Origin: Candidatus Latescibacterota bacterium
Lineage (GTDB): Bacteria; JAAXHH01
Assembly (NCBI GenBank): GCA_022823465.1
Contig: JAJEHX010000029.1
Coordinates: 7,852 to 71,851 of the forward strand
Length of the DNA: 64,000 nt
Direction: 5' to 3'
Position numbers and translations under genes: made by a program. The notes under the pieces are model-generated. The model saw only the letters and a program-made list of their open reading frames with translations, did not search any database and was not told the origin of the DNA. Positions 41,301 to 56,025 of this stretch are shown piece after piece; positions within the stretch are counted from its first letter, which is position 1; the number at the start of each line of letters is the position of its first letter.

Positions 41301-41520
41301 CACCTTCATGACGCTGGAGGACGAAACGGGGTTCGTGAACCTGGTCATCTGGGAGAAAGTATTCGAGTCCTATTCCTCGCTGGTCAGAACACTTCCCTGC
41401 TTAGGCGTGACCGGAAACCTGCAGGTGGGGGAGGGTGTGGTCCACCTCGTGGCCGAGGCGGTCTGGGACCCGAGGCTGGAGGACGGGTCGTTGCGTCTCA
41501 AGAGCCGGGATTTTCATTAG
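38368..41520 (+). CDS. dnaE2: Error-prone DNA polymerase III alpha-like subunit DnaE2 (ImuC)
   Basis: 1050 aa starting [51 protein letters not shown] (PHP domain). Pol III alpha core motifs ([28 protein letters not shown] fold). The listed ORF 37741.. carries an artefactual N-terminal extension; the ATG at 38368 overlaps the imuB stop. Confidence 0.9.
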
Positions 41521-41611
41521 ACTTGCAATCAGACGATATATAATTTACAATTGGACGGCATCAAAACTTGCAATCAGACGACATTATAACTTGCAATCAG
41601 ACGCATACAGT
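41521..41611. repeat. Left array: four direct ~23-bp-period repeats (ACTTGCAATCAGACG core), starting one nt after the dnaE2 stop
   Basis: Units at 41521 (ACTTGCAATCAGACG), 41544 (TTTACAATTGGACGG), 41566 (ACTTGCAATCAGACG) and 41589 (ACTTGCAATCAGACG); 15-nt core plus ~8-nt variable segment. Confidence 0.8.
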
Positions 41612-41707
41612 TTAAATTGTTATAAACGTCCAGGTTTATTGTGACTGAACGAACCCATCAAAACATATTTAACAAGAAAACACATACCTTGGAAGTGCTT
41701 TAAGCCG

Positions 41708-43054: not shown

Positions 43055-43182
43055 ATTCAAGTGTTGGAAAGGATAAACTTGAGTCGATTCCTTAACGTTG
43101 AAGCATTAAAAACACACGCTTGTACACCGATTGGGCCGCCTGTCGCCCGTTGATCGTAAATCTTCTGCCAGGCCCCACGATA

Positions 43183-43290
43183 TCTTGCAATTGGCCGCAC
43201 CACTAACTTGCAATCAGCCGCTTTTCAGACTTGCAATTGGACGGTATCAAGACTTGCAATCAGCCGTTACCGAGACTTTCACTTGGCCGG
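43183..43290. repeat. Right array: five direct repeats at exact 23-bp spacing (ACTTGCAATCAGCCG / ACTTGCAATTGGACGG core), same orientation as the left array
   Basis: Units at 43183, 43206, 43229, 43252 and 43275. The last unit overlaps the 3' end of the tfoX-like ORF. Confidence 0.8.
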
Positions 43291-43605
43291 CAGGGATGCA
43301 GCGTAGGCCGCGGCACGGTCCACCCAGTCCTGCAGATCTTGCTCTGATGCAATGCCCGGCGGTTCCACCAGCGCCCATCCCTTCATGGTCCGTCCCGCGA
43401 TGTCGGCAGGTTTCGTGTGCGGTTCCGCCAGCGTCTCGTCGTGTTGCATGCGGTCCAGCCGCACGATGAGCGAGCCTTTCCAGGTCCCCGCACACATATT
43501 GCCGTTGATCATGAAACAGACGCCGCCGAACATGTTTCGCTCGGAGTATCCGTTACGCTTCGAAAGAATGGAACGAATCCGACCGGCTAACGCGTCATTG
43601 CTCAT
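43279..43605 (-). CDS. TfoX/Sxy N-terminal-domain protein
   Basis: ...GYSERNMFGGVCFMINGNMCAGTWKGSLIVRLD... matches the TfoX_N signature (MFGG..lyl.Gkmfa). Confidence 0.6.
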   Translation of the reverse strand: MSNDALAGRIRSILSKRNGYSERNMFGGVCFMINGNMCAGTWKGSLIVRLDRMQHDETLAEPHTKPADIAGRTMKGWALVEPPGIASEQDLQDWVDRAAAYAASLPAK

Positions 43606-43822
43606 CCTGACCTGTGCTTTCCCTCTTCGATAAGATCAAATGGTATCGAGTGCGTATCAGCGCTTGAAGCCCCGTCCTCGTAATGACCGGACTGCTGTTC
43701 CCGCTCATTCCGTCTTCCCGTGTCGTCATGTATAGGGACGCCCATAGTTTCGAGTGCCGATCGACACGGCTCTCCCGCTCATCCCATTGTCCCGTTTCGC
43801 CAGGTGTTGGGGGTCGAGACGA

Positions 43823-44287
43823 TCAGGGCAATACGAACTCGTGCTCCGGATGCTTTACGGTCAATACCGGGCAGGGCGCCATCTGAACGACCTTCTCAGC
43901 CACGCTCCCGATCAGGGCGTGGGTGATCCCCGTCCTTCCGTGGGTAGCCAGAACGATCAGGTCCACGTCGTGGTTCTTGGCATAGCGGATGATGGACACG
44001 TGCGCGACGTCCGTGTCCACCGCGGTGCGGACCTCGAGACCTTCGATTTCGCCGCGGATCGTTTCCAGCCGGGATCTCACGTCCAACTCGTACTGGGATT
44101 GCATCTCCGAAGCCGAGGATACAACCGGCAGATCGACGCCCGCCGCACTCATCCACGGCAGATCGAACACGTGGAGCAGATGCAGTTTCGCCCCGTATGC
44201 CGAGGCAAACTCGCGGGCGTAATCGAGCGCGTATCCGGCATAGTCCGACAGGTCGGTCGGCACGAGGATGTTGTTGATTCTGATCAT
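43823..44287 (-). CDS. Universal stress protein (UspA family)
   Basis: ILVPTDLSDYAGYALDYAREFA...HLLHV...DLIVLATHGRTGITHALIGSVAEKVVQMAPCPVLTV. Confidence 0.8.
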   Translation of the reverse strand: MIRINNILVPTDLSDYAGYALDYAREFASAYGAKLHLLHVFDLPWMSAAGVDLPVVSSASEMQSQYELDVRSRLETIRGEIEGLEVRTAVDTDVAHVSIIRYAKNHDVDLIVLATHGRTGITHALIGSVAEKVVQMAPCPVLTVKHPEHEFVLP

Positions 44288-44644
44288 GATTGTACCTTCT
44301 TTCCCGTACGGGATTTATCCGCGGCGTTTGACAAGGCGCGGCGAAGGGTGAGGGGGGCGACGGTCTCCGACAAAAGACGGCAATATGCCCTGTCATATAG
44401 ATACGTAATTTTGAAGGCGGTGTCAAAAAGCTACAGGCTGGAGTAGCGGCCTGATCAAGTAGCACTTGTCGAACGATAGATTCGAAAGAAGGTGCCATTC
44501 CCCACGTTGGTCTTCATGGCGTCGGAATGTATCGACATCGTTATATGCGATTTACTGTACGCATATTGCGTTTGCCGGTGACTATGTAGAGGATGGACGG
44601 AGCGAAATCAATAGGCGGAATGAGATCAGTATTCATAAAGGAGG

Positions 44645-44803
44645 ATGCATGTGGCGCGGCGTGACTGGTACTGCGAGGATGTGCTGTCTGGAGAGCTTGA
44701 CGTACAGTGCGTGTACGAGGACGATCTGGTCCTGGCGTTCCACCATCCGCGAGTTCGTTACACTAAATGTGGGCCGGTTCAAGATGCCTGCGAAGGAGGT
44801 TAG
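44645..44803 (+). pseudogene. Truncated HIT-family (histidine triad) N-terminal fragment
   Basis: Translation ...YCEDVLSGELDVQCVYEDDLVLAFHHP... matches the HIT N-terminus (CIFCKI.GE.PA.IVYEDD.VLAF.DI.P). The HxHxH core is absent; the frame stops after ~50 codons; RBS AAGGAGG immediately upstream. Confidence 0.3.
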
Positions 44804-44806
44804 CAG

Positions 44807-45616
44807 TTGAACCGGAAACAGACGTCTATTTCAACTTGCTTCTCCTACGAGCGATCGCTTGAAGATCTGTTCCCTTTGATCTCCTCTGCTGGATTCACGC
44901 ACGTGTCGCTAGGTGCTAAAGAGCCTCACTCCAGCTATCTGAGCGTATCAAGAAGAGGTGATCTTCTCCAGCTTCTGCACGACGCCAACCTGCGAATGGA
45001 CTCGATTCACGGCATTCGGCTTGATCTGCCGGGAGCCCTTTCCAGCCTTACCGCTACCGCCGAGGCCGCTGCTTTTCTCGACGTACCGGTCATCGTCGTC
45101 CACGCGAGTTCGTTTGATTTCGATCCCAGCGAGTTCGACGAACGCCTGGAAGTGGTACTGAATACGTGTGAAGCCTTGGCGCCAGTCGCCGAAGACACCG
45201 GGGTGAGATTCGCTCTTGAGAATGTCCTCCCGGGTCCAGCGACGGAACTTGTCCGTTCCGCACTCGAGCGTTTACCCAGTGAACATTTTGGTTTCTGCTA
45301 CGACTCCTCACACGACCAGATAGGTGGTCCGAAACCTTTCACTTTGCTTGATGTCTTGGGGACCAGACTTCTGGCCCTTCATTTGTCGGATCGAATCAGG
45401 GATCATGTTGACCACGTCGTTCCTGGCGAAGGGTTCATAGACTGGGAGAAACTTTGTGAGGAAATCCGTCATTCCGCATATGCAGGACCCGTAAGCCTCG
45501 AAGTGTTAATGAATTTCTCTGGTTTCAAGGACCAAGTTGAATTTCTGCGACAAGCCTGCAGGCAAGCTGAGAGGCTCTACCCCCTGGTTTTCGGTGAGAA
45601 TGCCGCGGGTTTGTGA
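44807..45616 (+). CDS. Sugar phosphate isomerase/epimerase (xylose-isomerase-like TIM barrel)
   Basis: TTG start. AP-endonuclease-2/TIM-barrel motifs (VPVIVVHAS...VRFALENV...LHLSD). Confidence 0.7.
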   Translation: MNRKQTSISTCFSYERSLEDLFPLISSAGFTHVSLGAKEPHSSYLSVSRRGDLLQLLHDANLRMDSIHGIRLDLPGALSSLTATAEAAAFLDVPVIVVHASSFDFDPSEFDERLEVVLNTCEALAPVAEDTGVRFALENVLPGPATELVRSALERLPSEHFGFCYDSSHDQIGGPKPFTLLDVLGTRLLALHLSDRIRDHVDHVVPGEGFIDWEKLCEEIRHSAYAGPVSLEVLMNFSGFKDQVEFLRQACRQAERLYPLVFGENAAGL

Positions 45617-45760
45617 AATCCTACACGGGCAGTGCGCCTGTAACATGGCGACATGGTGTGTGTGGCTTCGGTCGCGAGGGTCCTCTAAGCAACGCATTTT
45701 GCACCTCGTGAACCTTTTCCCCTCCTACATCGCCCTGTTAGATGAAGGGAGAGCGATCTA

Positions 45761-47179
45761 ATGGGGTTCCTCGATGATCAGATCCTAGTCCAACAGATCC
45801 AGGCAGGCGACGAGCAGGCCCTCGTGGCCCTGATCCGGCGCTACGAGCGTTCGCTGGCCGCCTTGATCCGGGATCGGATCGGGTCGGTGCAGGCGGTGGA
45901 GGACGTGCTGCAGGAGACCCTCCTGCACGTCTGGTTGGGGTTGCGTGATCTGGAGCCGCGGAACGTGCGCGCCTGGCTCTACCAGGTTGCGCGTAACCGC
46001 TGCAGTGACTACCTGCGCTCCACGCAACGTCGAGAGCGCTTTGTCGGAGCAGAGGAACTCGCGACGATGATTAACCGCTTCTGCGCACCGGCGGCTCGTC
46101 AACGCCAGGCAGCACAGGATGTGGTTGAAGCCTTCGATCATGTGCCGGAGAAGGAACGAGCGGCACTGAGGTCGTTCTACCTGGATGGATTGAGCATCGC
46201 GGAAATCGCTGCCCGTCATCGCTGCCCATCGGGAACCATCAAGCGGCGACTGTCCCACGGCCGGGACTTGGTCCGAAGCGAGCTGGGCGTAACCACGAAA
46301 AGAAGGAGTATTACCATGACCGCAGAAATAAAAACCGTAAAGGCGTCTTTTCCAGATTTCCGGCCCGAAATCTCCATCGAAAAAAGTGCAAAACCGCCAT
46401 TCGCCATCGACCTACGGGAGTTGTCATGGTGGTTCATCGTTCCCGAAATCGGTGACCAGGTGCGGTGGGCGGACTACGAGCCAACGCGGGATGGATCGGC
46501 GTGGAAGTTAACCGAGGTCAAGGACATGGCTGCTACGCGACGCGCCATCATCCACGGAAGACCGTGCGTAGAGATCGAGATGGAGGACCAGCGCTGCGGG
46601 GACCGGGAAGGCCTCCTCCCGTTTAACCATGATCCGGAGACGAGGGATCGCCATACCCGCGTCTGGGGCCGCCTGGAAGAGACGGAGGTGCATTGGCTGG
46701 CCGTCGAAAGCATGAAATCCGATGGCACCAGGGAACTCCTGACCTGCCTGGACGAAGACTTTGGATGGGATTTTGGCATGACGCCACGTCTGGTCGAAGA
46801 CCGTGGTTACCTGACGGAGCAGTCGGACGGCACGTTCGTAAAGAAACCAGATGCTCCACAGTTATTCTCAAACGGACTCTACACGGTACGTATCGACGAT
46901 CGGACATTCGAATGCATGCGGGTTTTCGACATCGACGCGGATACGTCTGATCGAGCGGTGCTGATCATGGCATACGTCACCCGTGCCGGCCGCACGCTGC
47001 TGTTCCGGCGCTACAACGGCAACCTTTGGGGAAAACGGGAGAAGCCACCTCATTTACAGGGGGTCGAAATGACGTGGGAAGATGACCTGCCCCACACCGA
47101 CCGTCTCGTGATCGACGGCGTGAAGTACGTGCATCACTACGACGTCCTGACGGATGAGACGTGTGGGATCAGGGCGTAG
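45761..47179 (+). CDS. ECF (sigma-70 group 4) sigma factor fused to a ~280-aa C-terminal domain of unknown function
   Basis: Region 2 (LIRRYERSLAALIRDRIGSVQAVEDVLQETLLHVWLGLRDL...AWLYQVARNRCSDYLR); region 4 (ALRSFYLDGLSIAEIAARHRCPSGTIKRRLSHGR). Then a soluble 280-aa extension with no TM segment; no adjacent anti-sigma gene. Confidence 0.8.
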   Translation: MGFLDDQILVQQIQAGDEQALVALIRRYERSLAALIRDRIGSVQAVEDVLQETLLHVWLGLRDLEPRNVRAWLYQVARNRCSDYLRSTQRRERFVGAEELATMINRFCAPAARQRQAAQDVVEAFDHVPEKERAALRSFYLDGLSIAEIAARHRCPSGTIKRRLSHGRDLVRSELGVTTKRRSITMTAEIKTVKASFPDFRPEISIEKSAKPPFAIDLRELSWWFIVPEIGDQVRWADYEPTRDGSAWKLTEVKDMAATRRAIIHGRPCVEIEMEDQRCGDREGLLPFNHDPETRDRHTRVWGRLEETEVHWLAVESMKSDGTRELLTCLDEDFGWDFGMTPRLVEDRGYLTEQSDGTFVKKPDAPQLFSNGLYTVRIDDRTFECMRVFDIDADTSDRAVLIMAYVTRAGRTLLFRRYNGNLWGKREKPPHLQGVEMTWEDDLPHTDRLVIDGVKYVHHYDVLTDETCGIRA

Positions 47180-47182
47180 GGA

Positions 47183-47404
47183 TTGGCAACGGAACAATAC
47201 AAGTGCAGCGCAGATTCCCAGGTTCAACTTGAAAAATGGTGGTTTACCGTTGTCTTTCTGACCATCACGGTCGCAAGCCATGCTGTATTCTGGAAGTTCG
47301 GAGCTTACGCCTTTTCAATTGAGCTTGTCTTCGATTACATTGCTAGCATCATCCATCCTAACACACCGGCATCACCCACCGTATTGGGAGAAACAGGTGC
47401 ATAA
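47183..47404 (+). CDS. Small membrane protein, paralog A (73 aa)
   Basis: MATEQYKCSADSQVQLEKWWFTVVFLTITVASHAVFWKFGAYAFSIELVFDYI... A ~105-nt stretch is ~90% identical to 49253-49357, and its substitutions are synonymous or conservative. Its stop overlaps the GFA start. Confidence 0.45.
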   Translation: MATEQYKCSADSQVQLEKWWFTVVFLTITVASHAVFWKFGAYAFSIELVFDYIASIIHPNTPASPTVLGETGA

Positions 47405-47867
47405 GGACCACAGTTACTCTGGCGGCTGCAGCTGCGGAGAGGTACGTTACAGACTTCGGAACCCGCCACTTTTTGTGCACGCGTGTCACTGTCTCGACTG
47501 TCAGAAGGCATCCGGGTCCGCCTTCGGGATTACGACTATTGTTTTGGAAAACGATATCTCATCAGATCATGGGGTGATTGTTTCGAAGCCTTCCGATGCA
47601 AAACGAACGACGTTCATCTGCGGGTCCTGCGGAGATGTTATCTACAGGACTGCTTCGAATCATCCGGCCACTGCGCTACTGAGTTCGCGAACGCTGGACG
47701 ATATGAGGGTGCTTGAGATTAACGCACACATTTGGACTAAAGAAAAGCACGCCTGGCTCGAGCTGCCGGCTCATGTTCCGCAGTTTGTAAAAGGATACGA
47801 CCGGGACGAGACGTGGCCTCGGGAGAGCCTGGAGCGCCTCTGTAACGCACTGGGGAAAGTTATTTGA
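47400..47867 (+). CDS. GFA-family protein (glutathione-dependent formaldehyde-activating/CENP-V-like Cys-rich domain)
   Basis: CSCGEVRY...CHCLDCQKASGSAF...CGSCG zinc-binding pattern. Probable GTG start at 47400. Confidence 0.7.
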   Translation, partial: HKDHSYSGGCSCGEVRYRLRNPPLFVHACHCLDCQKASGSAFGITTIVLENDISSDHGVIVSKPSDAKRTTFICGSCGDVIYRTASNHPATALLSSRTLDDMRVLEINAHIWTKEKHAWLELPAHVPQFVKGYDRDETWPRESLERLCNALGKVI

Positions 47868-48044
47868 ACCTCCGTCGAGCAGCTACTGGACCGTGAACGA
47901 AGTACCATCGTCGGTATCGAGTCGGCCTGCATCCCGGTCATGCCGCGGCTCAGCGTAGGTAGGCCATAAGGGGCTACATTCACGATGCCAGATCCCTGGC
48001 CTACGGGAAGGAATCTGTCACCGAAGGACAGGAAGTAAGACTGG

Positions 48045-48766
48045 ATGACGCGCTTGTACTTCATATTACGAAGAAGATAGAGCAGAACCGGCCAACCTCT
48101 CTGTAACATCGTTGACGAACGGAGACAGGCAATTACCCACATCATTACCTCACGTCGCCTGGAATTGGTCTCGATGGGGCCGCGACTGCTGGAAGCGTTG
48201 CTAGCCCGCAATCATGGGGCGGCGGAGAAGGTTGCCGGCTTTGAGATTCCCAGGGATCTCGTTCTCAGTGCTCGCACGCTGCGAAACCGATTAAGACAAC
48301 TCCAGGCTCGTCCAGAGGTACAACCCTGGTTGTTGCGGGCAATAGTCATTAAACAGGCACAGACTATGTGTGGTCGGATCGGTTTCCACTCCGAGCCTGG
48401 TCCCGAGGATCTGCGGAATGTAGCAGCAGATGGAGTAGAGCTCGGTTACGAAGTTGGTGAATCCTTCCGCAGACGGGGCATCGGCAAGGAAGCGGCGCTT
48501 GCGTTGATGAAATGGGCGTATGAAGAACATGGTCAGCGTTGTTTGTCCTATCTATTGACCCAGACAACATTCCATCTCTGTATATGGCTCGGTCGATGGG
48601 GTTTCGAGAAATAGGTTCACATATTGATGAAGAGGACGGTCTGGAATTGTACTTCGAGCGCCGACTGGGATGTTGGCCTGGCGAATGGGCATCATGGGAG
48701 TTCGTAGATGCCATCGAGAACGAAGATGGAGATCGTCAGAATGATCAAGCACTTTCCGGTGAATGA
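48045..48766 (+). pseudogene. GNAT-family N-acetyltransferase (RimJ/RimL-like) with an internal frameshift near 48535-48545
   Basis: Frame 1: ...ITSRRLELVSMGPRLLEALL...RIGFHSEP...ESFRRRGIGKEAALALMKWAYEEHGQR. The conserved C-terminal motif continues in another frame (...VLSIDPDNIPSLYMARSMGFREIGSHIDEEDGLELYFERR). The listed ORFs 48165..48614 and 48539..48766 are the two halves. Confidence 0.55.
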
Positions 48767-49191
48767 TCCGTAGATATACACCACGTCAAATACCTGTGCG
48801 GTTATTCTGCGCCGATGATCATGGCTTAGCCTTTGTGCAACTCTCGACTTTGATCCGGGTTAACCAGTCGATGCCCAGAATACGACAGCGAAGAGAAGAC
48901 CTGGCGTCATCTGAACTTCCTCGAGCACGTGAGATGTTGGCGCATCCCCAGCTATCTCTGGTTGAATGTCAAGACCAGTTGGTAATATTGGTTTTTTGAC
49001 ACAGATTCCAAGATTCGACTCTAAAAATCGACTAATCCCAATAAGCCATTTTCGGATCGTGTATCCGTTTGATATCGGGGCCTCCTGCGCCTGATTTCCC
49101 CGCATTGTGCGTCATGCCACGATCAGGTCGGGGACTATGCGATCGATTCATGCATCATATCAGAAGCGAGTCGAGGAACGCGACGACTACA

Positions 49192-49623
49192 ATGGGCAAA
49201 AACCAAAGTCAAAACCGGGTCGCTGTCTGGGGCGTTCCCGAAAACACTCGATGGTGGTTTACTGTTGTCTTTCTGGCCATCACGGTAGCAAGCCATGTTA
49301 TTCTCTGGAAATTCGGGGTTTACGCCTTTTCAATCGAGCTTGTCTTCGATTACATTATCAAGATCGGTGGATCATCGGTATTCGCCACGTTTACGATCAT
49401 AGAAGGAGTAGATTTCATGGGGTGGCTCTACGAATCCATAAAGCGACGACACAGGGAGGAGGGTCGCGCTGAAGGCCGCGAGGAGGGTCGGAGAGAACGA
49501 GACCAGGCATACAGGGAGTGGATCAGCAGGGAACAGGAGGCCGGCACGCTTGGCACGCCGAAGCAAAGTCCTCCGCCCTTTCTCGATGACGTTGTCTCGC
49601 AATCAGAACGAGGTTCGGCATAA
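49192..49623 (+). CDS. Small membrane protein, paralog B (144 aa) with a charged Arg/Glu-rich C-terminal tail
   Basis: MGKNQSQNRVAVWGVPENTRWWFTVVFLAITVASHVILWKFGVYAFSIELVFDYI... then ...RRHREEGRAEGREEGRRERDQAYREWISREQEAG. Confidence 0.45.
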   Translation: MGKNQSQNRVAVWGVPENTRWWFTVVFLAITVASHVILWKFGVYAFSIELVFDYIIKIGGSSVFATFTIIEGVDFMGWLYESIKRRHREEGRAEGREEGRRERDQAYREWISREQEAGTLGTPKQSPPPFLDDVVSQSERGSA

Positions 49624-49872
49624 GCCTGCATAGAAGCCATCAAGGCGGAGCTATCCGTTGTCGTCCAGCGAAAGTACCGATACCTGAGAATTGTCAATCA
49701 TCCGAGACCGGGTTGGAGTTTGAAGTGAGTCTTCCTACCGGTCTTCTCGCCAAAGCAGTAGCCGGGAGTCTGTAACATGTTTTGTGTAACTGGCGATAGC
49801 ATGTATCCTTGCTCAAATGGAGGAAATGCTATGGCCAGAGACAAACGAACCCTCAGAATGAGGAGATAACCA

Positions 49873-50109
49873 ATGGCTCGTTCAAAGAGGCCTGGCAAGG
49901 CTGCCGCAAGTAGAGCTGCGAAAACACTTCGGAATCCGAGGTCTACCCAAAAGGCCAAAACATCTGCCGCTAAAACGCTGGCAAATCGGTCGAGTAGTGG
50001 ACGAAAAGTAAAATCAGCGCCAAGATCAGGAAGTGTGGGACAAAGGGCAATTAAGAGGGCTGTCAATTCTGTGAGGTCCAAAAGGGGGAGCCAGTCCAAG
50101 AGGCGTTGA
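49873..50109 (+). CDS. Small highly basic Lys/Arg/Ala-rich protein (histone H1/Hc1/AlgP-like), 78 aa
   Basis: MARSKRPGKAAASRAAKTLRNPRSTQKAKTSAAKTLANRSSSGRKVKSAPRSG...; strong RBS GAGGAG 7 nt upstream. The opposite-strand ORF 49698..50099 is probably its complement artefact. Confidence 0.45.
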   Translation: MARSKRPGKAAASRAAKTLRNPRSTQKAKTSAAKTLANRSSSGRKVKSAPRSGSVGQRAIKRAVNSVRSKRGSQSKRR

Positions 50110-50112
50110 ATA

Positions 50113-50728
50113 ATGTCAAGTCCGTATACAAGTAATGTGTTTCTGAACTTCCCATTTGATGCTCAATATCTTTCGATTAGAAACGCGATTGTGTTTTCTG
50201 TCTTCGACTGCGGGTTTGTTCCCAGATGTGCTCTTGAAATCGATAATAGTGGTGAGGTAAGGTTTGATCGTATTCAGCGACTTATAAATGAATCCAAATT
50301 CGGGATTCATGATATTTCCAGAACTGAGCTGGATTCAGCCACTAAACTTCCCAGGTTTAACATGCCATTGGAATTGGGAGTGTTTATTGGCGCAAGACGA
50401 TATGGCAGTACGAAACAGAAACATAAAAACTGTCTGATACTGGATATCGAACAATACCGGTACCAGGCGTTCAGTTCATATCCGACATTGCAGGTCACGA
50501 TATTCGTGCTCATTCAAACGAACCAGAACAGGCAATCAATCATGTAAGGAATTGGTTGAACAGTGCATCCGGACGTAAAACCATACCAGGTGGCAGCGAA
50601 ATCCTGCGTCGTTTCACACAGTTCGAGGCCGAATTGCCAGACCTGTGTAAGGCAGTACCAATCGAATTAGACGAACTAACCTACAATGACTATTCGAATT
50701 TCGTTTCAGAATGGCTTGCCGCGAATTA
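50113..50728 (+). pseudogene. Low-GC (~40%) ORF with a weak TIR-like N-terminal signature, split across two reading frames near 50425-50460
   Basis: Frame 1: MSSPYTSNVFLNFPFDAQY...RIQRLINESKFGIHDISRTE...PLELGVFIGARRYGS (resembles the TIR DVFLSF...I..S...IvvlS pattern). Frame 3 continues as a clean protein: ...PGVQFISDIAGHDIRAHSNEPEQAINHVRNWLNSASGRKTIPGGSEILRRFTQFEAELPDLCKAVPIELDELTYNDYSNFVSEWLAAN*. Confidence 0.35.
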
Positions 50729-50819
50729 AGGTCACGATATCAATCCTCCCGCCCGATGCGACTCTTGCATATCACCCCAAACGCCTTGCGACAGTAGTAC
50801 TGAAGGAGGTACCGATAGG

Positions 50820-51410
50820 ATGCCGGTGCTCGTTCTGGTGAAGCATTCGTTACCGGAAATCGATCCTGCGGTTCCTTCGAGGGAATGGCCTTTGTCGGAG
50901 GAGGGTCGAGCCCGTTCCCGGACACTCGCCCAGAAACTGGGCCGGTATGATCTCGATATGATTGTCAGTAGCAACGAACCTAAAGCCGTAGAAACAGCCA
51001 GTATCTCGGCGCGCGGGTTGAATGTTCCGGTAGAAGTCGTCGAGGGGTTGCACGAACATGAACGTAGCAATGTCGGCTTCCTTGAAAAGGACCACTTCGA
51101 GCAGTCGATCGGCCGTTTCTACTCCCGACCGGCGGAACTGGTTTTCGGCGAGGAGACGGCGGATGCAGCGTACGACAGGTTTTCGAAGGCCGTCCATGGA
51201 GTATCGGACCGATTTTCACAGGCAACCCTGGCGCTCGTAACGCATGGGACTGTACTGAGCCTTTTCGTGAGCCGCATTTCGGGGTTGAAACCCTTTGCTA
51301 CGTGGAAGCAGTTGGGACTGCCATCTTTTATCGTCTTGTCCCGGCCCGGCTTCGGCGTGGCCGAGACTTGCTGGCGTGTCGAAGACGCGGGGCCTCGGGC
51401 CGTCGAGTAA
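50820..51410 (+). CDS. Histidine phosphatase (phosphoglycerate mutase-like) family protein
   Basis: LVLVKHSLPE (variant of the RHG motif) and second-His motif LALVTHGTVLSLFV; 196 aa. Confidence 0.65.
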   Translation: MPVLVLVKHSLPEIDPAVPSREWPLSEEGRARSRTLAQKLGRYDLDMIVSSNEPKAVETASISARGLNVPVEVVEGLHEHERSNVGFLEKDHFEQSIGRFYSRPAELVFGEETADAAYDRFSKAVHGVSDRFSQATLALVTHGTVLSLFVSRISGLKPFATWKQLGLPSFIVLSRPGFGVAETCWRVEDAGPRAVE

Positions 51411-51602
51411 ACACGTCGAGTAACAATTCGGCATGCGCCGCGCGCCGTTCGGCGTACTGGCCGTTGGAAACCCTCGACTTCGATCCGGGTGTTGCCAGCC
51501 TGCGAAACGCTAAGCGGTAGCCTTCGATACATTTGCGATACATTGCTGGTAGCCAGCGATACATTATTGAGACATCGCCGGTAAGGTAACAGGAGAAGAT
51601 CA

Positions 51603-52640
51603 ATGCCGCAGTTGGATCTCAGAAAGAAACCCATAGAGGAAGTGCGCGCCTTGCTTGAACGGCATAAAGGCCTTCTGCCGGTCGAGCTGCACTGCGACGC
51701 CCGCGAGATCACGTGGCTAGACTTTGGGGACATGCATCTGCGCGAGACCTTTCTCGAGATATCCGCGGAAGAGCTACTTGCTGACGATGCAAACGCATTG
51801 TCGGTGGTTACTGATCTCGATGTACTTGAGAGGTCTGATCTTTACTCGGACGCGCTTTCGCCAGCGGGATTCATCTTCCACGTCGGGCGATGTGGTTCGA
51901 CCCTGCTTGCCAAGGTATTGTCGAGATCGGATCGACACATCGTCATCAAAGAGGCGGAACCTGTACAGCAGGTGCTGGGCGTTGAATTCGAAGACGTAGT
52001 CAGAGATAAACGCTCCCTGTATTTTCAGTCCTTGCTCAACATGTATGGTCACAGGCGGCTGCCGGTACATGAACGATTTTTCGTCAAATTCTCAAGTAAT
52101 CACGTCAATCGACTGGCTTTGATCCGAAGCCTTTATCCGGGTGTGCCGTGGCTGTTCCTCTATCGCAATCCCTACGAGATCATTCCAACCTCGCTTGAGG
52201 GACCCGCGTGGTTTATCCGCAACAAAAACACTGCCGAGGGAGCCTTCGAAGCCGGTCTGCCGATTGAAGCTGTTGAACAGTTGAGCGATCTGGAATTCAG
52301 CGTGCAGGTTGAATCTTCCACCCTGCAGATCGCCATTGAAAATACCTGTGACCACTGTCTGTTCGTGGACTATACGCAGTTGAGGCCGGGCAACCTCCCC
52401 AGGATCCTCCGCTTCTTCGGACTCGATGTGACCGAAGAGGAGTATGACGAAATGGTTGCGCAGTTTGGAATCTACTCGAAAAGCGATGGGGAGTCCGTGC
52501 CGTTCGTGCCGGACAGTGCAACGAAGAGAGGTAAAGTGACTGATGAGATCAGGCAGGCCATAGAGGAGGAACTGTGGGGACTGTATCTGTCCCTCAGGAA
52601 CTCGGAACGTAACCTGGATCAGGTCTCCGGCGCCCCTTGA
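51603..52640 (+). CDS. Sulfotransferase family protein
   Basis: PAPS 5'-phosphosulfate-binding-type P-loop FHVGRCGSTLLAKVL plus downstream family-like features; 345 aa; lower GC. Confidence 0.55.
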   Translation: MPQLDLRKKPIEEVRALLERHKGLLPVELHCDAREITWLDFGDMHLRETFLEISAEELLADDANALSVVTDLDVLERSDLYSDALSPAGFIFHVGRCGSTLLAKVLSRSDRHIVIKEAEPVQQVLGVEFEDVVRDKRSLYFQSLLNMYGHRRLPVHERFFVKFSSNHVNRLALIRSLYPGVPWLFLYRNPYEIIPTSLEGPAWFIRNKNTAEGAFEAGLPIEAVEQLSDLEFSVQVESSTLQIAIENTCDHCLFVDYTQLRPGNLPRILRFFGLDVTEEEYDEMVAQFGIYSKSDGESVPFVPDSATKRGKVTDEIRQAIEEELWGLYLSLRNSERNLDQVSGAP

Positions 52641-52673
52641 GTGGAAGATGTATTTCTCTCGCCAAAAATGCTC

Positions 52674-53540
52674 TCAGTCTTCGAACCGTAGTTTCAACCC
52701 GTCATAAGCCACCCGGTAACCATGTTCCCGGGCGTATTCATCAAGCTCATCGTGCTCGAGGTTGCCCTCGTGGGACAGGTGCGTCGCATAGACCGTGCCG
52801 TTCTCTTTGAGCAATCCGGATTCGCGAAATCGACCTGCGTGGGCAATGACGTCCCGTGACGCCAGGTGGTCTCCCGGTCTTGAGTCAAACCCGATGCCAT
52901 AGGTGTGATCGAGAAGGACCGCGTCATACCGGGTACGTTGGCGTCGAAGGTGATCCCAGACCTCCTCGGACAGGACCGACGTGTCTGTACCATAGAAAAC
53001 GGCATGGTTGCCCTGTTCTATAGCGTAGAGCAGGTATCCCTGATCAAAACCGTGGTTGGCGGGATAACCGGTAACGCGGTAATTCCCCGCGGTGCAAGTC
53101 TCGAACGGCGCGAGAGACATCGGTTTCAACCGCAGTGCGGACTGCGGTCCCGGATCGAAGATGCTCCCGTATTCACTTGTACTGCGTACCATCTCATCGA
53201 CCGCGTTCAGCGTTTCACCGGAGCCGACAAGCAGCAGGTCTCCTGATACCACTGTGCCGTAATCGGCGTGTCTGGATATGATGTAGCCGGTATCCAGATG
53301 GTCTTCGTGGGGGTGCGTTTGAAGGCATAGGCCGATGCCGGCGAGTGAGAGACCGTACTCGAACGACGCCGAGGCAATATCAGGACCGATGTCCACCAGT
53401 GAATCGTCGTTGATCATCAGCGACGACCTCCGGCGCAGGTTCTTCCCTCCAACCCGTCTGGCACCAGTGCATACCTGGCAGGTGCAGAACGGGACCGGCA
53501 TCGATGGCGCCGCGGCGGTTCCGAGAAAAGTTATTCGCAT
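52674..53540 (-). CDS. MBL-fold metallo-hydrolase, PhnP-like phosphodiesterase
   Basis: MRITFLGTAAAPSMPVPFCTCQVCTGARRVGGKNLRRRSSLMI (PhnP-type Cys-rich N-terminus) and HxHxDH motif THPHEDHL. Confidence 0.7.
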   Translation of the reverse strand: MRITFLGTAAAPSMPVPFCTCQVCTGARRVGGKNLRRRSSLMINDDSLVDIGPDIASASFEYGLSLAGIGLCLQTHPHEDHLDTGYIISRHADYGTVVSGDLLLVGSGETLNAVDEMVRSTSEYGSIFDPGPQSALRLKPMSLAPFETCTAGNYRVTGYPANHGFDQGYLLYAIEQGNHAVFYGTDTSVLSEEVWDHLRRQRTRYDAVLLDHTYGIGFDSRPGDHLASRDVIAHAGRFRESGLLKENGTVYATHLSHEGNLEHDELDEYAREHGYRVAYDGLKLRFED

Positions 53541-53619
53541 TTATACAACCTGGAATGACGGGCTGGTATGACGCGACCAACGTGGTCGTACCCAATGCAT
53601 CATTGCCGTAACACCTGTA

Positions 53620-56025
53620 TCAGCCCTGCCTCAGCGCGTTAACCGGGTTCCTGCCTGCGGCGGCCAGCGCGTGCGCCCCGATCGTCAGCCAGGCGATGGC
53701 CAGGGCGACGATGCCTCCCGCTATAAACCACACGAAGTTGATTCCCGCCGCATAGGCATAGTTCTGCAGCCATTGCGCCATGGCGTAGTACGCCAACGGC
53801 CAGGCGATCGCATTGGCCAGCAGGACATACTTCATGAAGTCCTTCGAGAGCAGCAGGACGATGTCCGAAACGGCGGCGCCGAGTACCTTGCGGATTCCAA
53901 TCTCCCTGGTCCGCTGCTGGATCGAGAAGGAAGCCAGGCCAAGGAGACCCAGGCACGCCACGAAGATCGCGAGAAAGGCGAATACCGCGAAGACCGTACC
54001 CAGTTGTCGTTCGGCGCGGTAAAGGCTGTCAAAATCCTCGTCCAGAAACGTGTATGCCAGGGGATAGACGGAATCGACTTCCCGCCACGCCTCCTGAATC
54101 CGGGCGATGGTATCCGACAGGTTCTCCGGCCCGATTCGAATGAGTATGTCACTGAAGTCGTAGGGATAGTGTATGAAGACGATCGGTTCGATTTCCTCAT
54201 GAATCGATTGCAGGTGGAAATCCTCCATGACCCCCCGGACGCGTCCTTTCGTACCGCGGTACTCGATCCATTCCACGAGCATGCCGATCGCGTCGGGCGG
54301 AGCTTCCCAGCCCAGTTTACGGGCGGCGGTCTCGTTCAGTAGGATTACCATGGTGGTATCCCTGGCCAACTCGACCGGAAAGTTCCGGCCTGCCGCGAGG
54401 CCGATTTCCATGACCTCCAGGAACTGGTCATCTGAAGAGAACACGGACACGATCAGGTTGTCCTCGGGGCTCATCTCATCGGAACGGACGGCCATAATCC
54501 GCGGTGATTGTTCGCCCGGGACACCGTCGGTCGTCGCCATGCCGACCACGCCCGGCATTTGTGCGAGGCGTAGTCTCAGCAATTGGGTGCTTTCACGCTG
54601 AACCGCGCCGGTAATCGGGATCACCATGACATGCTCCTTGTTGAAACCGAGCCGCACGTCCTGGATGTACTCGAGCTGGTCGTAGATGACGGCGGTGCTG
54701 ACCAGCAGAAAGATGGACATAGAGAACTGGATCACCACCAGGGACCGCCGCAATCCCATACCTTCCGTACCTGACTTCAAACTCCCTTTCAGTACTTCGG
54801 TGGGCAGGAAACCCGACAGGTACACCGCGGGATAGCTTCCAGCCGCCACTGCAATCGCGAGCGTTCCCGCCGCGAGCGCTCCCAGCACCCAGCCTTCCGA
54901 TAGGGCAAAGTCCAGTTGCTTGCCAGCCAGTACGTTCACGCCGGGCAGGGCGAGTTGTACAAGCGCGACCGCGACGATCATGGCAAGTCCCGCCATGAGG
55001 ATGGCCTCACCCAGGAACTGCCCCAGCAATTGGGACCGGTTGGCCCCCATCACTTTACGCACACCCACCTCTCTGGCGCGCATGGCGGACCGTGCCGTGG
55101 CCAGGTTCACGAAGTTGATGCACGCGATGAGGGGAATCAGGAACGCGATAACCAGGAAGAGCACCACGTAGCGGAAATCCCCGTTGGGCTCGAGCTCGCT
55201 GTCCCGGTGCGAATGCAGATGAATGTCCACCAGAGGCTGCAGAGACGGTCTCAACACTTTGCTCGAATCGCGGAACCTGCCTGTTTTGTTTCGTTCCACG
55301 AAGGCGGGCAGTTGCGCTTCCAGGTCTTCCGGAGCGGCATTTTCATGTAGTCTGATGTAGGTATAACGGTTTTCGTGAAATTCCCAATCATCCAGGCTAT
55401 CCGGATAAAGGGCGTTCCTTGTTACAAGAGACAGGATCATATCCGGCCGCAAATGCGAATTGGCCGGGATGTTCCGCATGACGCCGGTCACCATAAAGTC
55501 CCAGACGTTGTCCCCTCTGAGGACCTTCCCCATGGGGTCCTCGCCGCCGAAGTACTTGAAGGCCATATCCTCCGAAATCACGATCGAATACGGTTCGGTC
55601 AGCGCGGTACGGGGATTGCCTGCGACAAGCGGAATGGAAAACATGTCCAGCAGAGCCGCATCCGCCCAGATGACCTTTTTCTCATAGTATCGTTTTTCTT
55701 CATGCATGATGAACCAGACTGAAGTCGTGCCTCGCACCCGGGCGAACAGCTCGATTTCAGGGAAATCCCGCTTAAGGGCGGGTCCCCATCCCGATGGCGA
55801 TCCCGCCGTCTGGACCGTCTGCCCGGCACTTTCTATATCATCGACGATCCGGTAAACCCGGTCGGCATGGGGATGATACCGATCGTAGCTCAACTCGTCC
55901 CAGACGTAGCGCAGGATCAGCATGCAGGCCGCCAGGCCGATCGCGAGCCCCGCGATGTTGATGAGCGTGTAGGCGGGATACCTGAGCAGGCTGCGTGTGG
56001 CTATGGTGAGGTAGTTTTGGAGCAT
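53620..56025 (-). CDS. ADOP-type orphan ABC permease, paralog 4
   Basis: 801 aa (MLQNYLTIATRSLLRYPAYTLINIAGLAIGLA...) with duplicated FtsX domains (...ATARSAMRAREVGVRKVMGA..., ...SIQQRTREIGIRKVLGAA...). Confidence 0.85.
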   Translation of the reverse strand: MLQNYLTIATRSLLRYPAYTLINIAGLAIGLAACMLILRYVWDELSYDRYHPHADRVYRIVDDIESAGQTVQTAGSPSGWGPALKRDFPEIELFARVRGTTSVWFIMHEEKRYYEKKVIWADAALLDMFSIPLVAGNPRTALTEPYSIVISEDMAFKYFGGEDPMGKVLRGDNVWDFMVTGVMRNIPANSHLRPDMILSLVTRNALYPDSLDDWEFHENRYTYIRLHENAAPEDLEAQLPAFVERNKTGRFRDSSKVLRPSLQPLVDIHLHSHRDSELEPNGDFRYVVLFLVIAFLIPLIACINFVNLATARSAMRAREVGVRKVMGANRSQLLGQFLGEAILMAGLAMIVAVALVQLALPGVNVLAGKQLDFALSEGWVLGALAAGTLAIAVAAGSYPAVYLSGFLPTEVLKGSLKSGTEGMGLRRSLVVIQFSMSIFLLVSTAVIYDQLEYIQDVRLGFNKEHVMVIPITGAVQRESTQLLRLRLAQMPGVVGMATTDGVPGEQSPRIMAVRSDEMSPEDNLIVSVFSSDDQFLEVMEIGLAAGRNFPVELARDTTMVILLNETAARKLGWEAPPDAIGMLVEWIEYRGTKGRVRGVMEDFHLQSIHEEIEPIVFIHYPYDFSDILIRIGPENLSDTIARIQEAWREVDSVYPLAYTFLDEDFDSLYRAERQLGTVFAVFAFLAIFVACLGLLGLASFSIQQRTREIGIRKVLGAAVSDIVLLLSKDFMKYVLLANAIAWPLAYYAMAQWLQNYAYAAGINFVWFIAGGIVALAIAWLTIGAHALAAAGRNPVNALRQG

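What the first reader, a model, noticed from the sequence alone, without database searches (positions are those of the whole stretch)
49873..50728. Very low-GC islet: histone H1-like basic protein gene followed by a frameshifted TIR-like ORF
Within a 65% GC genome, ~50.1-50.7 kb falls to ~40% GC, a hallmark of recent horizontal acquisition. It encodes an ORF beginning NVFLNFPFD... with a TIR-like pattern, though the family is uncertain. A clean second reading frame carries ~95 more codons (...QFISDIAGHDIRAHSNEPEQAINHVRNWLNSAS...), implying a recent frameshift or sequencing error. Immediately upstream, behind a strong RBS, is a 78-aa Lys/Arg/Ala-rich protein with AAKTL repeats, like bacterial histone H1/Hc1-like proteins. 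Both may be parts of a decayed defence or nucleoid-targeting module.
Basis: partly seen in the sequence, partly recalled or inferred. Interest (0 to 1): 0.55.

Follow-up and report, generated by a model that had tools for sequence, protein, structure and literature searches.

The report
Broken TIR-like enzyme gene with tag-bearing partner
The low-GC islet is a self-contained, horizontally spread two-gene module, a small very basic protein carrying a conserved 30-residue motif plus an unannotated TIR-like enzyme that is broken here by a 5-bp duplication, and this gene pair recurs across many bacterial phyla without having been described.

Summary
The window is 59.6% GC, not 65%. The stretch 50113-50729 is 42.6% GC, the lowest in the window. 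The frameshift is a 5-bp tandem duplication (GTTCA GTTCA, 50469-50478). Removing one copy gives a 203-aa protein that is colinear with, and up to 93% identical to, more than 8000 intact database proteins.

That protein has no Pfam, NCBIfam or PADLOC family. A confident AlphaFold model and sub-threshold PF10137 hits place it in the TIR / Cap12 / nucleoside-deoxyribosyltransferase fold. It has an invariant Glu (E87, NMPLELG) and an acidic C-terminal helical domain.

The 78-aa basic protein is not an Hc1/H1 family member. It carries a ~30-aa motif (R-x-[VI]-K-x-x-P-K-x-G-x-[VIL]...A-V-x-x-V...R). This motif lies directly beside the TIR-like gene, on the same strand, in 57 of 83 loci from about ten phyla, and nowhere else in those loci. 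In Poribacteria the motif is the N-terminal tag of ThsB-TIR, CD-NTase, DUF2188, GIY-YIG-like and TPR proteins.

Best reading: a mobile conflict (defence or toxin-antitoxin-like) module in which a TIR-like N-glycosidase works with a tag-bearing partner. The copy here was inactivated very recently. The mechanism is inferred, not shown.

The parts
49857..50737 (+). Whole two-gene module, a discrete block of foreign composition
   Evidence: One 881-bp blastn block, 89% identical to L001 5745-6620 and 82% identical to L004 and L006. Homology stops at both ends. GC3 is 0.40-0.43 against 0.55-0.80 for neighbouring genes.
49860..49865 (+). Shine-Dalgarno-like GAGGAG, 7 nt before the ATG of the small gene
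   Evidence: Read directly from the sequence.
49873..50109 (+). Gene for the 78-aa basic partner protein (pI 12, no acidic residues)
   Evidence: ORF. Composition. Orthologues of 78 aa sit in the same position, 3 nt before the TIR-like ATG, in L001-L006. Database proteins P0268 (96% identity) and P0261 match it. No Pfam, NCBIfam or PADLOC family.
49915..49980 (+). N-terminal region with two AAKTL repeats (aa 15-19 and 32-36)
   Evidence: Read from the translation. Similar 'S-x-AGK-x-L ... AKS-x-AA-x-x-L' N-termini occur in the Chlorobi (L011), Geomonas (L018) and L026 partners.
49999..50100 (+). Conserved ~30-aa partner motif ('tag'): RKVKSAPRSGSVGQRAIKRAVNSVRSKR
   Evidence: The custom HMM hits this place only in the whole window (E 7e-12). 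It hits directly beside the TIR-like gene in 57 of 83 loci and nowhere else in them. The 45-sequence alignment is gapless, with an invariant Gly and near-invariant Arg and Ala.
50113..50729 (+). TIR-like enzyme gene, frameshifted pseudogene (203 aa when repaired)
   Evidence: The repaired protein is 93% identical to P0001. 5319 to more than 8000 homologues of about 203-216 aa were found. Alignments A1-A3. AF2 model with pLDDT 87.
50134..50510 (+). TIR/NDT-like flavodoxin-fold core (aa 8-131)
   Evidence: DSSP of the model gives E8-12, H17-32, E36-38, H48-59, E63-67, H85-97, E106-111, H118-125, E129-131. Foldseek hits SPARTA TIR, plant TIRs, TIR-SAVED, NDTs and a Cap12/Pycsar TIR. PF10137 sub-threshold matches cover protein residues 42-128 and profile positions 32-112.
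50371..50373 (+). Codon of invariant Glu87 (NMPLELG), the predicted catalytic residue
   Evidence: Invariant in A2 (95 sequences) and A3 (150 sequences). It lies at the N-terminus of helix 85-97 after strand 63-67. Its equivalence to the TIR/NDT catalytic Glu is an inference. The only residue-level alignment to an NDT-like neighbour is not significant.
50469..50478 (+). 5-bp tandem duplication GTTCA GTTCA, the inactivating frameshift between codons 119 and 121
   Evidence: Removing one copy restores colinearity with all homologues, with no gap.
50523..50723 (+). C-terminal three-helix domain (aa 136-202), out of frame in this copy; acidic (pI 4.6)
   Evidence: Model helices H136-151, H159-179 and H189-202 with pLDDT 88-98. 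pI.

Best explanation
The islet is one copy of a compact, horizontally mobile two-gene conflict module.

Gene 2 encodes a roughly 203-aa enzyme of the TIR / Cap12 / nucleoside-deoxyribosyltransferase fold. Its invariant Glu87 probably cleaves the N-glycosidic bond of NAD+ or of a nucleotide, and a C-terminal acidic helical domain follows the core.

Gene 1 encodes its obligatory partner. The only universally conserved part of the partner is a ~30-residue basic strand-turn-helix motif.

I infer that this motif docks on the TIR-like protein, plausibly on the acidic helical domain. The docking either keeps the enzyme inactive until a trigger arrives, or couples it to whatever the partner's other domain does. 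In this window that other part is just a basic, possibly nucleic-acid-binding tail. In Poribacteria it is a ThsB-type TIR, a CD-NTase, DUF2188, a GIY-YIG-like domain or TPR repeats.

The copy in this window was inactivated very recently by a 5-bp tandem duplication. The partner gene remains intact.

Shown: the gene pair, the motif, the fold class, the invariant residues, the lesion and the spread of the module.

Inferred: enzymatic activity, physical docking, and a defence or toxin role.
For: - The frameshift repair is exact.
- The family is large and full-length: 5319 to more than 8000 proteins, and at least 547 tblastn-confirmed loci among GTDB species genomes. These span Gemmatimonadota, Planctomycetota, Nitrospirota, Gammaproteobacteria, Chlorobi, Acidobacteriota, Verrucomicrobiota, Poribacteria, Clostridia and Actinomycetota.
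- Fold: the model has pLDDT 87 and pTM 0.87. Its best structural matches are TIR domains, NDTs and a Cap12/Pycsar TIR. 42 of 95 members give colinear sub-threshold PF10137 hits across the catalytic region.
- 15 columns are invariant across 95 diverse members, including D16, R50, R81, N83, E87, K105, S122 and H132. This pattern is typical of an enzyme.
- Partner linkage: motif HMM hits are 38 upstream, 19 downstream and 0 elsewhere in 83 loci.
- The motif is fused to ThsB_TIR (E 8e-21), a DncV-like CD-NTase (Pfam 6e-7; PADLOC cyclase 5e-125), DUF2188 and TPR. Family genes lie next to two further fusion proteins found through the motif alone.
- No third gene is conserved among 145 immediate neighbours.
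- Mobility: the gene has lower GC than its flanks in 74 of 75 loci. It is found on 17 alphaproteobacterial plasmids. It is next to IS elements or integrases in some loci.
- It is absent from 50,697 phage genomes and from IMG/VR.
- Disrupted copies recur, as expected for a costly or toxic gene: L015, L073, plasmid L086, the Sinorhizobium fragments and L092.
- The lesion is recent: synonymous to non-synonymous changes are 27:8 before it and 20:6 after it.
Against: - No biochemical or phenotypic data exist for any member.
- The family fails every curated TIR or NDT model threshold. Structural matches are weak (best PDB E 3.7e-3, TM about 0.5).
- Association with known defence genes among the immediate neighbours is modest and was not quantified.
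- Conservation is unusually high (at least 50% identity across phyla), which is atypical for fast-evolving immune proteins.
- 26 of 83 loci lack a motif hit at E <= 1e-3, although many of these show visibly degenerate versions.
- Some tag-bearing proteins sit on short contigs with no adjacent TIR-like gene (L089, L091).
- Docking of the motif on the helical domain rests only on genetic linkage and charge complementarity.
Confidence: 0.6

Rival explanations
1. The pair is a type II toxin-antitoxin-like addiction module. The TIR-like protein is an NAD+/nucleotide-degrading toxin. The small basic protein is its antitoxin, with the motif binding the toxin and the basic tail binding the operator DNA. 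The module persists by addiction on mobile DNA rather than by defending against phage.
For: - A small gene (43-90 aa) lies directly upstream, with a gap of -14 to +10 nt, in most phyla.
- The module is self-contained, with no third conserved gene.
- It occurs on plasmids and in variable islands.
- Only the enzyme gene is repeatedly inactivated.
Against: - In Poribacteria the motif is fused to ThsB-TIR, CD-NTase, GIY-YIG-like and TPR domains, and the gene order is reversed. This is not what antitoxins look like.
- Antitoxins are usually acidic or carry a recognisable DNA-binding fold. This partner has pI 12 and no known fold.
- This reading is not exclusive of a defence role.
Confidence: 0.2
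2. The roles are reversed. The TIR-like protein is the sensor, signal generator or modifier, and the tag-bearing partner is the effector. The enzyme would act on the tag, for example by ADP-ribosylating the near-invariant Arg or Lys, or would release it. That would switch on whatever is attached to the tag. In this window the attachment is a histone-like basic tail that would condense or coat nucleic acid.
For: - The constant component is the enzyme. The variable component carries interchangeable domains behind one conserved receiver-like motif. This is the layout of CBASS and Thoeris effectors, where a shared sensor domain is joined to variable effectors.
- The tag has an invariant Gly and near-invariant Arg and Ala.
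- The basic tails are compositionally similar to Hc2 in some loci (L025, weak HC2 hit at 1.4e-3).
Against: - Several of the fused domains (ThsB-TIR, CD-NTase, TPR) are signal generators or sensors in known systems, not effectors.
- No evidence exists of any covalent modification.
- The window's partner gives no Hc1/HC2 family hit.
Confidence: 0.15
3. The frameshift is an assembly or sequencing artefact, and the gene is intact in the organism.
For: - The out-of-frame part shows no extra decay.
- A second nearby gene, the GNAT at 48165-48766, also appears to be split by an indel. That could point to local consensus errors.
Against: - A clean 5-bp tandem duplication in non-repetitive sequence is not a typical homopolymer or consensus error.
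- The long genes of the window are uninterrupted: 1259-aa DnaE2-like, 801-aa MacB-like and an 839-aa ORF.
- Independent nonsense or frameshift lesions in other members, including a finished plasmid (L086), show that real inactivation is common in this family.
Confidence: 0.15
4. The pair has a housekeeping or metabolic role. The enzyme would be a nucleoside/nucleotide salvage enzyme similar to NDT, LOG or DNPH1, and the partner a nucleoid-associated protein.
For: - The fold is shared with nucleoside 2-deoxyribosyltransferases.
- Sequence conservation is very high.
- Some neighbouring genes are housekeeping, such as DHO dehydrogenase and tRNA synthetases.
Against: - The distribution is patchy: hundreds of the 185,579 species genomes.
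- Composition is foreign in 74 of 75 loci.
- The module is carried on plasmids and its context varies.
- Partners are fused to immune domains.
- There is no PF05014 hit.
Confidence: 0.05

Closest known systems
Cap12 / Pycsar effector TIR domain (Pfam PF10137), the NADase effectors of CBASS and Pycsar such as TIR-SAVED and TIR-STING
   Same: - Both have a flavodoxin-like TIR fold.
- Sub-threshold matches are colinear over profile positions 32-112, including the D-I-S ... N-x-x-x-E-L-G region.
- A BFVD protein annotated Cap12/Pycsar TIR is among the best structural matches.
- In L046 and L066 the family gene sits beside a bona fide CD-NTase.
   Different: - The family fails the PF10137 threshold: best E 8e-4, and the window protein gives no hit at all.
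- It has no SAVED, STING or cNMP-binding sensor domain. It carries a 70-aa acidic helical domain instead.
- Its partner is defined by a short peptide motif, not by a cyclase.
Swarozyc / DUF4062 TIR-like NADases (bioRxiv 10.64898/2026.05.01.722283)
   Same: Both are divergent TIR-like domains with a conserved catalytic-type Glu followed by C-terminal helices. The DUF4062 proteins are found in defence contexts. A DUF4062 gene lies directly downstream of the pair in L002 and L003.
   Different: - Only 3 of 95 members give weak PF13271 hits.
- According to the paper, Swarozyc is a single-gene system activated by a phage portal protein.
- The family here is always paired with a tag-bearing partner.
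Thoeris (ThsB TIR with ThsA or other effectors; Yirmiya et al., bioRxiv 10.64898/2025.12.03.692087)
   Same: Both are two-gene operons with a TIR-fold enzyme and a modular partner. Some partners here actually contain a ThsB_TIR domain (L060, P0327, P0331), and DUF2188 is listed in that paper as a putative Thoeris effector.
   Different: - The constant protein here is not a Pfam-recognisable ThsB.
- The partner's conserved element is a 30-aa motif, not a SLOG, Macro or other ligand-binding domain.
- The window's partner has no effector domain at all.
Nucleoside 2-deoxyribosyltransferase (PF05014)
   Same: The fold and the position of the conserved Glu are shared. PDB entries 2a0k and 8rh3 and several viral NDTs are among the structural matches.
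   Different: There is no sequence-level match. The helical domain is additional. The context is a mobile gene pair.
Chlamydial histone H1-like proteins Hc1/Hc2 (PF07432, PF07382)
   Same: Both are Lys/Arg/Ala/Ser-rich, have a very high pI, and contain short repeats.
   Different: The window protein gives no family hit. Only the Microbulbifer partner shows a weak, compositional HC2 match. What is conserved is a specific non-repetitive motif that Hc1 and Hc2 lack.

Membership tests
TIR superfamily (Pfam clan STIR; PF10137 Cap12/PycTIR as nearest member) | Five-stranded parallel beta-sheet in a beta-alpha repeat (flavodoxin-like TIR fold) | tested here: met
   The AF2 model (pLDDT 87.2) has strands 8-12, 36-38, 63-67, 106-111 and 129-131 alternating with helices. 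Its best Foldseek matches are TIR domains, but they are weak (E 3.7e-3 to 5e-2, TMq 0.45-0.54).
TIR superfamily (Pfam clan STIR; PF10137 Cap12/PycTIR as nearest member) | Scores above the curated threshold of a TIR Pfam model (PF10137, PF13676, PF01582, PF08937) | tested here: not met
   The window protein hits no family at E <= 1. 42 of 95 members hit PF10137 only below threshold: best E 8e-4, 14-17 bits against a 24.7-bit cut-off.
TIR superfamily (Pfam clan STIR; PF10137 Cap12/PycTIR as nearest member) | Conserved catalytic Glu at the start of helix C | tested here: inconclusive
   E87 is invariant in 95 and in 150 sequences and sits at the N-terminus of helix 85-97, after strand C. No residue-level structural superposition was available. 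The hhalign pairing with the NVFYEVG Glu of an NDT-like neighbour is not significant (E 0.21).
TIR superfamily (Pfam clan STIR; PF10137 Cap12/PycTIR as nearest member) | NAD+ glycohydrolase or cyclase activity | not testable with these tools
   Needs an enzyme assay on an intact homologue.
Nucleoside 2-deoxyribosyltransferase (PF05014) | Sequence match to the family model | tested here: not met
   No PF05014 hit for the window protein or for any of 95 members, even at E <= 10. Only the fold is similar.
DUF4062 / Swarozyc | PF13271 domain | tested here: not met
   3 of 95 members hit, with best E 0.019. The window protein gives none.
Histone H1-like Hc1/Hc2 | Match to PF07432 (Hc1) or PF07382 (HC2) | tested here: not met
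   The window's 78-aa protein gives only a Con-6 hit at E 0.1. The NCBIfam and PADLOC scans gave nothing.
Histone H1-like Hc1/Hc2 | Lys/Arg/Ala-rich, highly basic composition | tested here: met
   pI 12.0, 32% K+R, 13 Ala, 14 Ser, no Asp or Glu. This is a resemblance in composition, not evidence of homology.
CBASS | A CD-NTase gene in the operon | tested here: not met
   There is none in the window. A tag-fused CD-NTase is the partner only in L046 and L066.
Type II toxin-antitoxin module | Two small adjacent co-directional genes with a short or overlapping junction | tested here: met
   The gap is 3 nt in the window and -14 to +10 nt in most loci.
Type II toxin-antitoxin module | The toxin is growth-inhibitory and is neutralised by binding of the antitoxin protein | not testable with these tools
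   Needs expression experiments. The recurrent loss of the enzyme gene is only suggestive.
Known anti-phage systems in PADLOC-DB v2 (2023) | Either protein matches a PADLOC model | tested here: not met
   The only hit is a weak BrxA match (E 0.008, 14 bits) for the enzyme. The partner gives nothing.

The most novel reading that the evidence does not exclude
The ~203-aa TIR-like protein is the hub of an undescribed 'hub-and-tag' immune architecture. One highly conserved enzyme would recognise, and possibly covalently modify (for example ADP-ribosylate), a portable 30-residue tag. That tag is attached in different genomes to ThsB-TIR, CD-NTase, GIY-YIG-like, DUF2188 or TPR domains, or to bare basic tails. 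A single enzyme family would thereby be coupled to many sensors and effectors.
Probability: 0.25. Interest if true: 0.8.

Novelty: new variant of a known kind. Interest (0 to 1): 0.6.

Why it matters
TIR-fold NAD+-cleaving enzymes are central to immunity in bacteria, plants and animals, and new branches of the fold are still being found (DUF4062/Swarozyc in 2026).

This work exposes a large branch: more than 8000 protein clusters, hundreds of species and about ten phyla. The branch is invisible to Pfam, NCBIfam and PADLOC and is annotated only as 'hypothetical protein'. Its genetic logic is unusual: an obligatory partner defined by a 30-residue motif that is also used as a tag on ThsB-TIR and CD-NTase proteins.

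If the enzyme and the tag interact as inferred, this would be a new way of wiring TIR enzymes to sensors or effectors. It would also give a directly testable two-gene system, since cultured carriers exist: Geomonas silvestris, Microbulbifer sp. HZ11, Duganella aquatilis, Massilia eurypsychrophila, and Sphingomonas and Bradyrhizobium plasmids.

The copy in this window is a fresh pseudogene. Its local importance is limited to marking a decaying accessory island.

Tried and rejected
- **Hc1/H1 membership of the small protein:** rejected. No family hit.
- **Programmed frameshift:** rejected. All close homologues are uninterrupted and colinear.
- **Chimeric assembly:** rejected. The same module and the same neighbouring genes occur in related contigs.
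- **Phage origin:** rejected. No match in INPHARED or IMG/VR.
- **A third conserved gene:** none found among 145 flanking ORFs.
- **Sequence search of the PDB** with two profiles: nothing.
- **First AF2 model** from 29 close sequences was poor (pLDDT 58). A 150-sequence alignment of database proteins worked.
- **hhalign against single NDT-like and DUF4062 neighbours:** not significant.
- **Word-indexed search with the motif profile** found only 50 small proteins. The full HMMER scan found 149 clusters.
- **Motif scan of viral contigs** could not be run from the alignment. Viral relatives of the P0335 non-tag domain lack the tag.
- **Rfam and tRNA scans** around the module were empty. The promoter and terminator scan was at chance level.
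Full report
**1. What is in the sequence**

The window averages 59.6% GC. The stretch 50113-50729 is 42.6% GC, the lowest 617-bp stretch in the window (z = -3.1). The surrounding 42-54 kb is already reduced to 52-56%, against 62-69% in the core parts.

An ORF of 144 codons starts at 50113 (MSSPYTSNVFLNFPFD...). A second frame then stays open to the stop at 50727-50729. The frame change is a perfect 5-bp tandem duplication, GTTCA GTTCA, at 50469-50478. Deleting one copy gives a 203-aa protein that reads ...ILDIEQYRYQAFISDIAGHDIRAH....

Directly upstream, behind GAGGAG (49860-49865), lies a 78-aa ORF at 49873-50109. It ends 3 nt before the ATG of the second gene. Its product has pI 12.0, 32% Lys+Arg, no acidic residue and two AAKTL repeats.

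**2. The repaired protein belongs to a large, unnamed family**

A search with the repaired protein returned 5319 proteins. The best is 93% identical, and nearly all are 202-212 aa and full-length. Identity stays at 65-70% even in Pseudomonadales and Nitrospirae. A profile search hit the 8000-candidate ceiling.

The repaired junction matches the family consensus with no gap. The duplication is therefore the lesion, and the reading frame is not programmed to shift.

A scan of GTDB species genomes confirmed at least 547 loci. These come from Gemmatimonadota, Planctomycetota, Nitrospirota, Gammaproteobacteria, Chlorobi, Acidobacteriota, Verrucomicrobiota, Poribacteria, Clostridia, Desulfobacterota and Actinomycetota.

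Neither Pfam, NCBIfam nor PADLOC recognises the protein. RefSeq calls the plasmid copies 'hypothetical protein'.

**3. Fold and likely chemistry**

- A first AlphaFold model from 29 close sequences was poor (pLDDT 58). With 150 sequences it reached pLDDT 87.2 and pTM 0.87.
- The model has a five-stranded beta-alpha core (aa 8-131) followed by three long helices (aa 136-202).
- Foldseek against the PDB returned TIR domains (SPARTA TIR-APAZ, RPP1, RPS4, TIR-SAVED, SARM1) and nucleoside 2-deoxyribosyltransferases, mixed with generic flavodoxin folds. All matches were weak (best E 3.7e-3, TM about 0.5).
- Against viral models, the best named match was a Cap12/Pycsar TIR protein (6.3e-4), followed by NDTs.
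- 42 of 95 family members give sub-threshold PF10137 (Cap12/PycTIR) hits. These are colinear over profile positions 32-112, which includes the active-site region.
- Across 95 diverse members, V9, N12, P14, D16, R50, R81, F82, N83, M84, E87, G89, K105, S122, G126 and H132 are invariant.

I therefore treat the protein as a new, divergent branch of the TIR/NDT-like fold and a probable N-glycosidase. It is not a member of any curated family.

**4. The small basic protein is a conserved partner, not a histone**

An ORF of 43-110 aa lies directly upstream, with a gap of -14 to +10 nt, in most loci. Its C-terminal ~30 residues are alignable across phyla without gaps. The pattern is R-x-[VI]-K-x-x-P-K-x-G-x-[VIL]-x(4)-[IV]-x-x-A-V-x-x-V-x-x-x-R, with an invariant Gly and near-invariant Arg and Ala.

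An HMM of this motif was searched against all six frames of 83 loci of about 12 kb each. At E <= 1e-3 it hit 38 times immediately upstream, 19 times immediately downstream, and never anywhere else. In the 64-kb window it hits only 49999-50100. Many of the 26 sub-threshold loci show visibly degenerate versions.

The downstream cases are all Poribacteria. There the motif is the N-terminal tag of larger proteins:

- ThsB-type TIR (L060, E 8e-21)
- DncV-like CD-NTase (L046 and L066; PADLOC cyclase 5e-125)
- DUF2188 (L043, L048)
- A GIY-YIG/MUG113-like domain (weak match)
- A TPR array (L031)
- Unknown domains

A full HMMER scan of 1.84 billion representatives found 149 clusters carrying the motif. 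Most are 30-120 aa, and a few are fusions (ThsB_TIR, TPR, DUF2188). Two fusions found purely through the motif (P0331, P0296) turned out to lie next to a family gene. Four others sit on short contigs with no family gene, so the tag is not exclusive to the pair.

The window's partner has no Hc1/HC2 hit. The 'histone H1-like' label reflects composition only.

**5. The unit is mobile and self-contained**

- Nucleotide homology to the nearest contig (L001) is one block, window 49857-50737, at 89% identity. The window's neighbouring 184-aa membrane-protein gene and its ECF sigma gene also have homologues in L001, L004 and L006, but in rearranged positions. This argues against a chimeric assembly.
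- GC3 is 0.43 for the small gene and 0.40-0.42 for the enzyme gene. The flanking accessory genes are at 0.55-0.71 and the core genes at 0.74-0.80.
- Family-wide, the gene has lower GC than its flanks in 74 of 75 loci. The mean difference is -8 points and the correlation with host GC is r = 0.87. Low GC is therefore a standing property of the module rather than proof of a very recent arrival.
- Among 145 immediately flanking ORFs, no family recurs more than three times.
- The gene is on 17 alphaproteobacterial plasmids. In one Sphingomonas plasmid it forms a tight small-ORF / enzyme / restriction-endonuclease operon.
- It is absent from phage genomes and from IMG/VR.

**6. State of the copy in this window**

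Against L001, synonymous to non-synonymous codon differences are 27:8 before the lesion and 20:6 after it. The out-of-frame part has not yet drifted, so the duplication is very recent, or it is an artefact.

I consider an artefact the less likely reading (about 0.15). A clean 5-bp duplication is not a typical consensus error, and the long genes of the window are intact. Real lesions are also common in the family:

- TAA at invariant S122 in L015
- A stop at codon 19 in L073
- TAG at codon 118 plus a frameshift in the finished Sphingomonas sp. NIC1 plasmid
- Unannotated fragments on Sinorhizobium plasmids
- A frameshift near codon 30 in L092, a low-coverage contig

**7. Mechanism**

Shown: a constant enzyme-like TIR-fold protein, an obligatory neighbour defined by a short basic motif, modular fusions of that motif to immune domains, mobility, and recurrent loss of the enzyme gene.

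Inferred (confidence 0.6): the motif docks on the enzyme. The acidic C-terminal helical domain (pI 4.6, against pI 12 for the partner) is the obvious candidate surface. Docking would then regulate or target a Glu87-dependent N-glycosidase in a defence or toxin-antitoxin-like module.

The rivals are listed separately: a pure addiction module, reversed roles with the tag as a receiver or substrate, an assembly artefact, and housekeeping salvage.

**8. Comparison with known systems**

The nearest known relatives are the Cap12/PycTIR effectors, the recently described DUF4062 'Swarozyc' NADases (bioRxiv 10.64898/2026.05.01.722283) and Thoeris (bioRxiv 10.64898/2025.12.03.692087). The family fails the sequence definition of each one. 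It also differs in having a motif-defined partner. I found no paper that describes this pair, but my literature access is limited.

**9. Verdict**

The islet is a freshly broken copy of an undescribed but widespread two-gene module: a TIR-like enzyme plus a tag-bearing partner. I class it as a new variant of a known kind. Interest is 0.6, resting on the family-level pattern rather than on this particular pseudogene.

Noticed in passing
window 48165-48766: The GNAT acetyltransferase gene appears to be split by a 1-nt indel near 48535-48545. ORF 48165-48614 matches Acetyltransf_3 profile positions 31-114. The typical C-terminal GNAT sequence (...LFVLSIDPDNIPSLYMARSMGFREIG...) continues in another frame to 48766. 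This is a second disrupted accessory gene 1.9 kb from the finding.
   Followed up: partly
window 47236-47341 and 49251-49356: A 106-nt direct repeat (90% identity) lies inside two paralogous small membrane-protein genes (47183-47404 and 49069-49623; shared sequence ...WWFTVVFL.ITVASH...WKFG.YAFSIELVFDYI...). Neither has a Pfam family. Homologues sit near the module in L001, L004 and L006.
   Followed up: partly
window 43171-43290: An array of about 4.7 copies of a 23-nt unit (consensus ACTTGCAATCAGCCGCTATCAAG), resembling iterons or an operator. It lies just downstream of an AAA_14/DUF4143 ATPase gene (41708-43054), at the left edge of the reduced-GC island.
   Followed up: no
family-wide: window codons 119-121; L015 codon 122; L086 codon 118: Counting five lesions from four copies (this window, L015, L073 and plasmid L086, which has two), three fall within codons 118-122, the invariant YRYQxFISDIAG segment. 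By a rough estimate the chance of this is about 0.01. It could be a hot spot, selection for a truncated product, or coincidence.
   Followed up: partly
L002 4531-7776 (same region in L003 and L005): In a sponge-associated Gemmatimonadota MAG the pair is flanked by two more genes of the TIR/NDT fold. Upstream is a 307-aa protein with an NDT-like C-terminus (…NPNVFYEVGYA…). Directly downstream is a 342-aa DUF4062 (Swarozyc-type) protein. Together they form a small cluster of TIR-like genes.
   Followed up: partly
L089 265-840; L091 691-1107; L088; L090: Four proteins carry the tag motif (P0371, P0335, P0324 with a C-terminal tag, P0414 with two tags) on short contigs that hold no TIR-like family gene. 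The non-tag domain of P0335 has relatives in IMG/VR viral contigs, and those relatives lack the tag. The tag may therefore be used outside the pair.
   Followed up: partly
window 37741-43054 and 42000-54000: A DnaE2-like error-prone polymerase gene and a DUF4143 ATPase gene border a ~12-kb accessory island of reduced GC (52-56%). The island holds a xylose-isomerase-like gene, an ECF sigma factor with a long C-terminal extension, GFA, GNAT, a histidine phosphatase, a sulfotransferase-like gene and an MBL hydrolase. No integrase, transposase or tRNA was seen in the window.
   Followed up: partly
L019-L082 (many loci): A large share of family members come from MAGs whose names suggest sponge association (Candidatus Poribacteria, RHO1 and SB bins). 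Some Poribacteria genomes carry two copies (OZ246979.1: L046 and L062).
   Followed up: no
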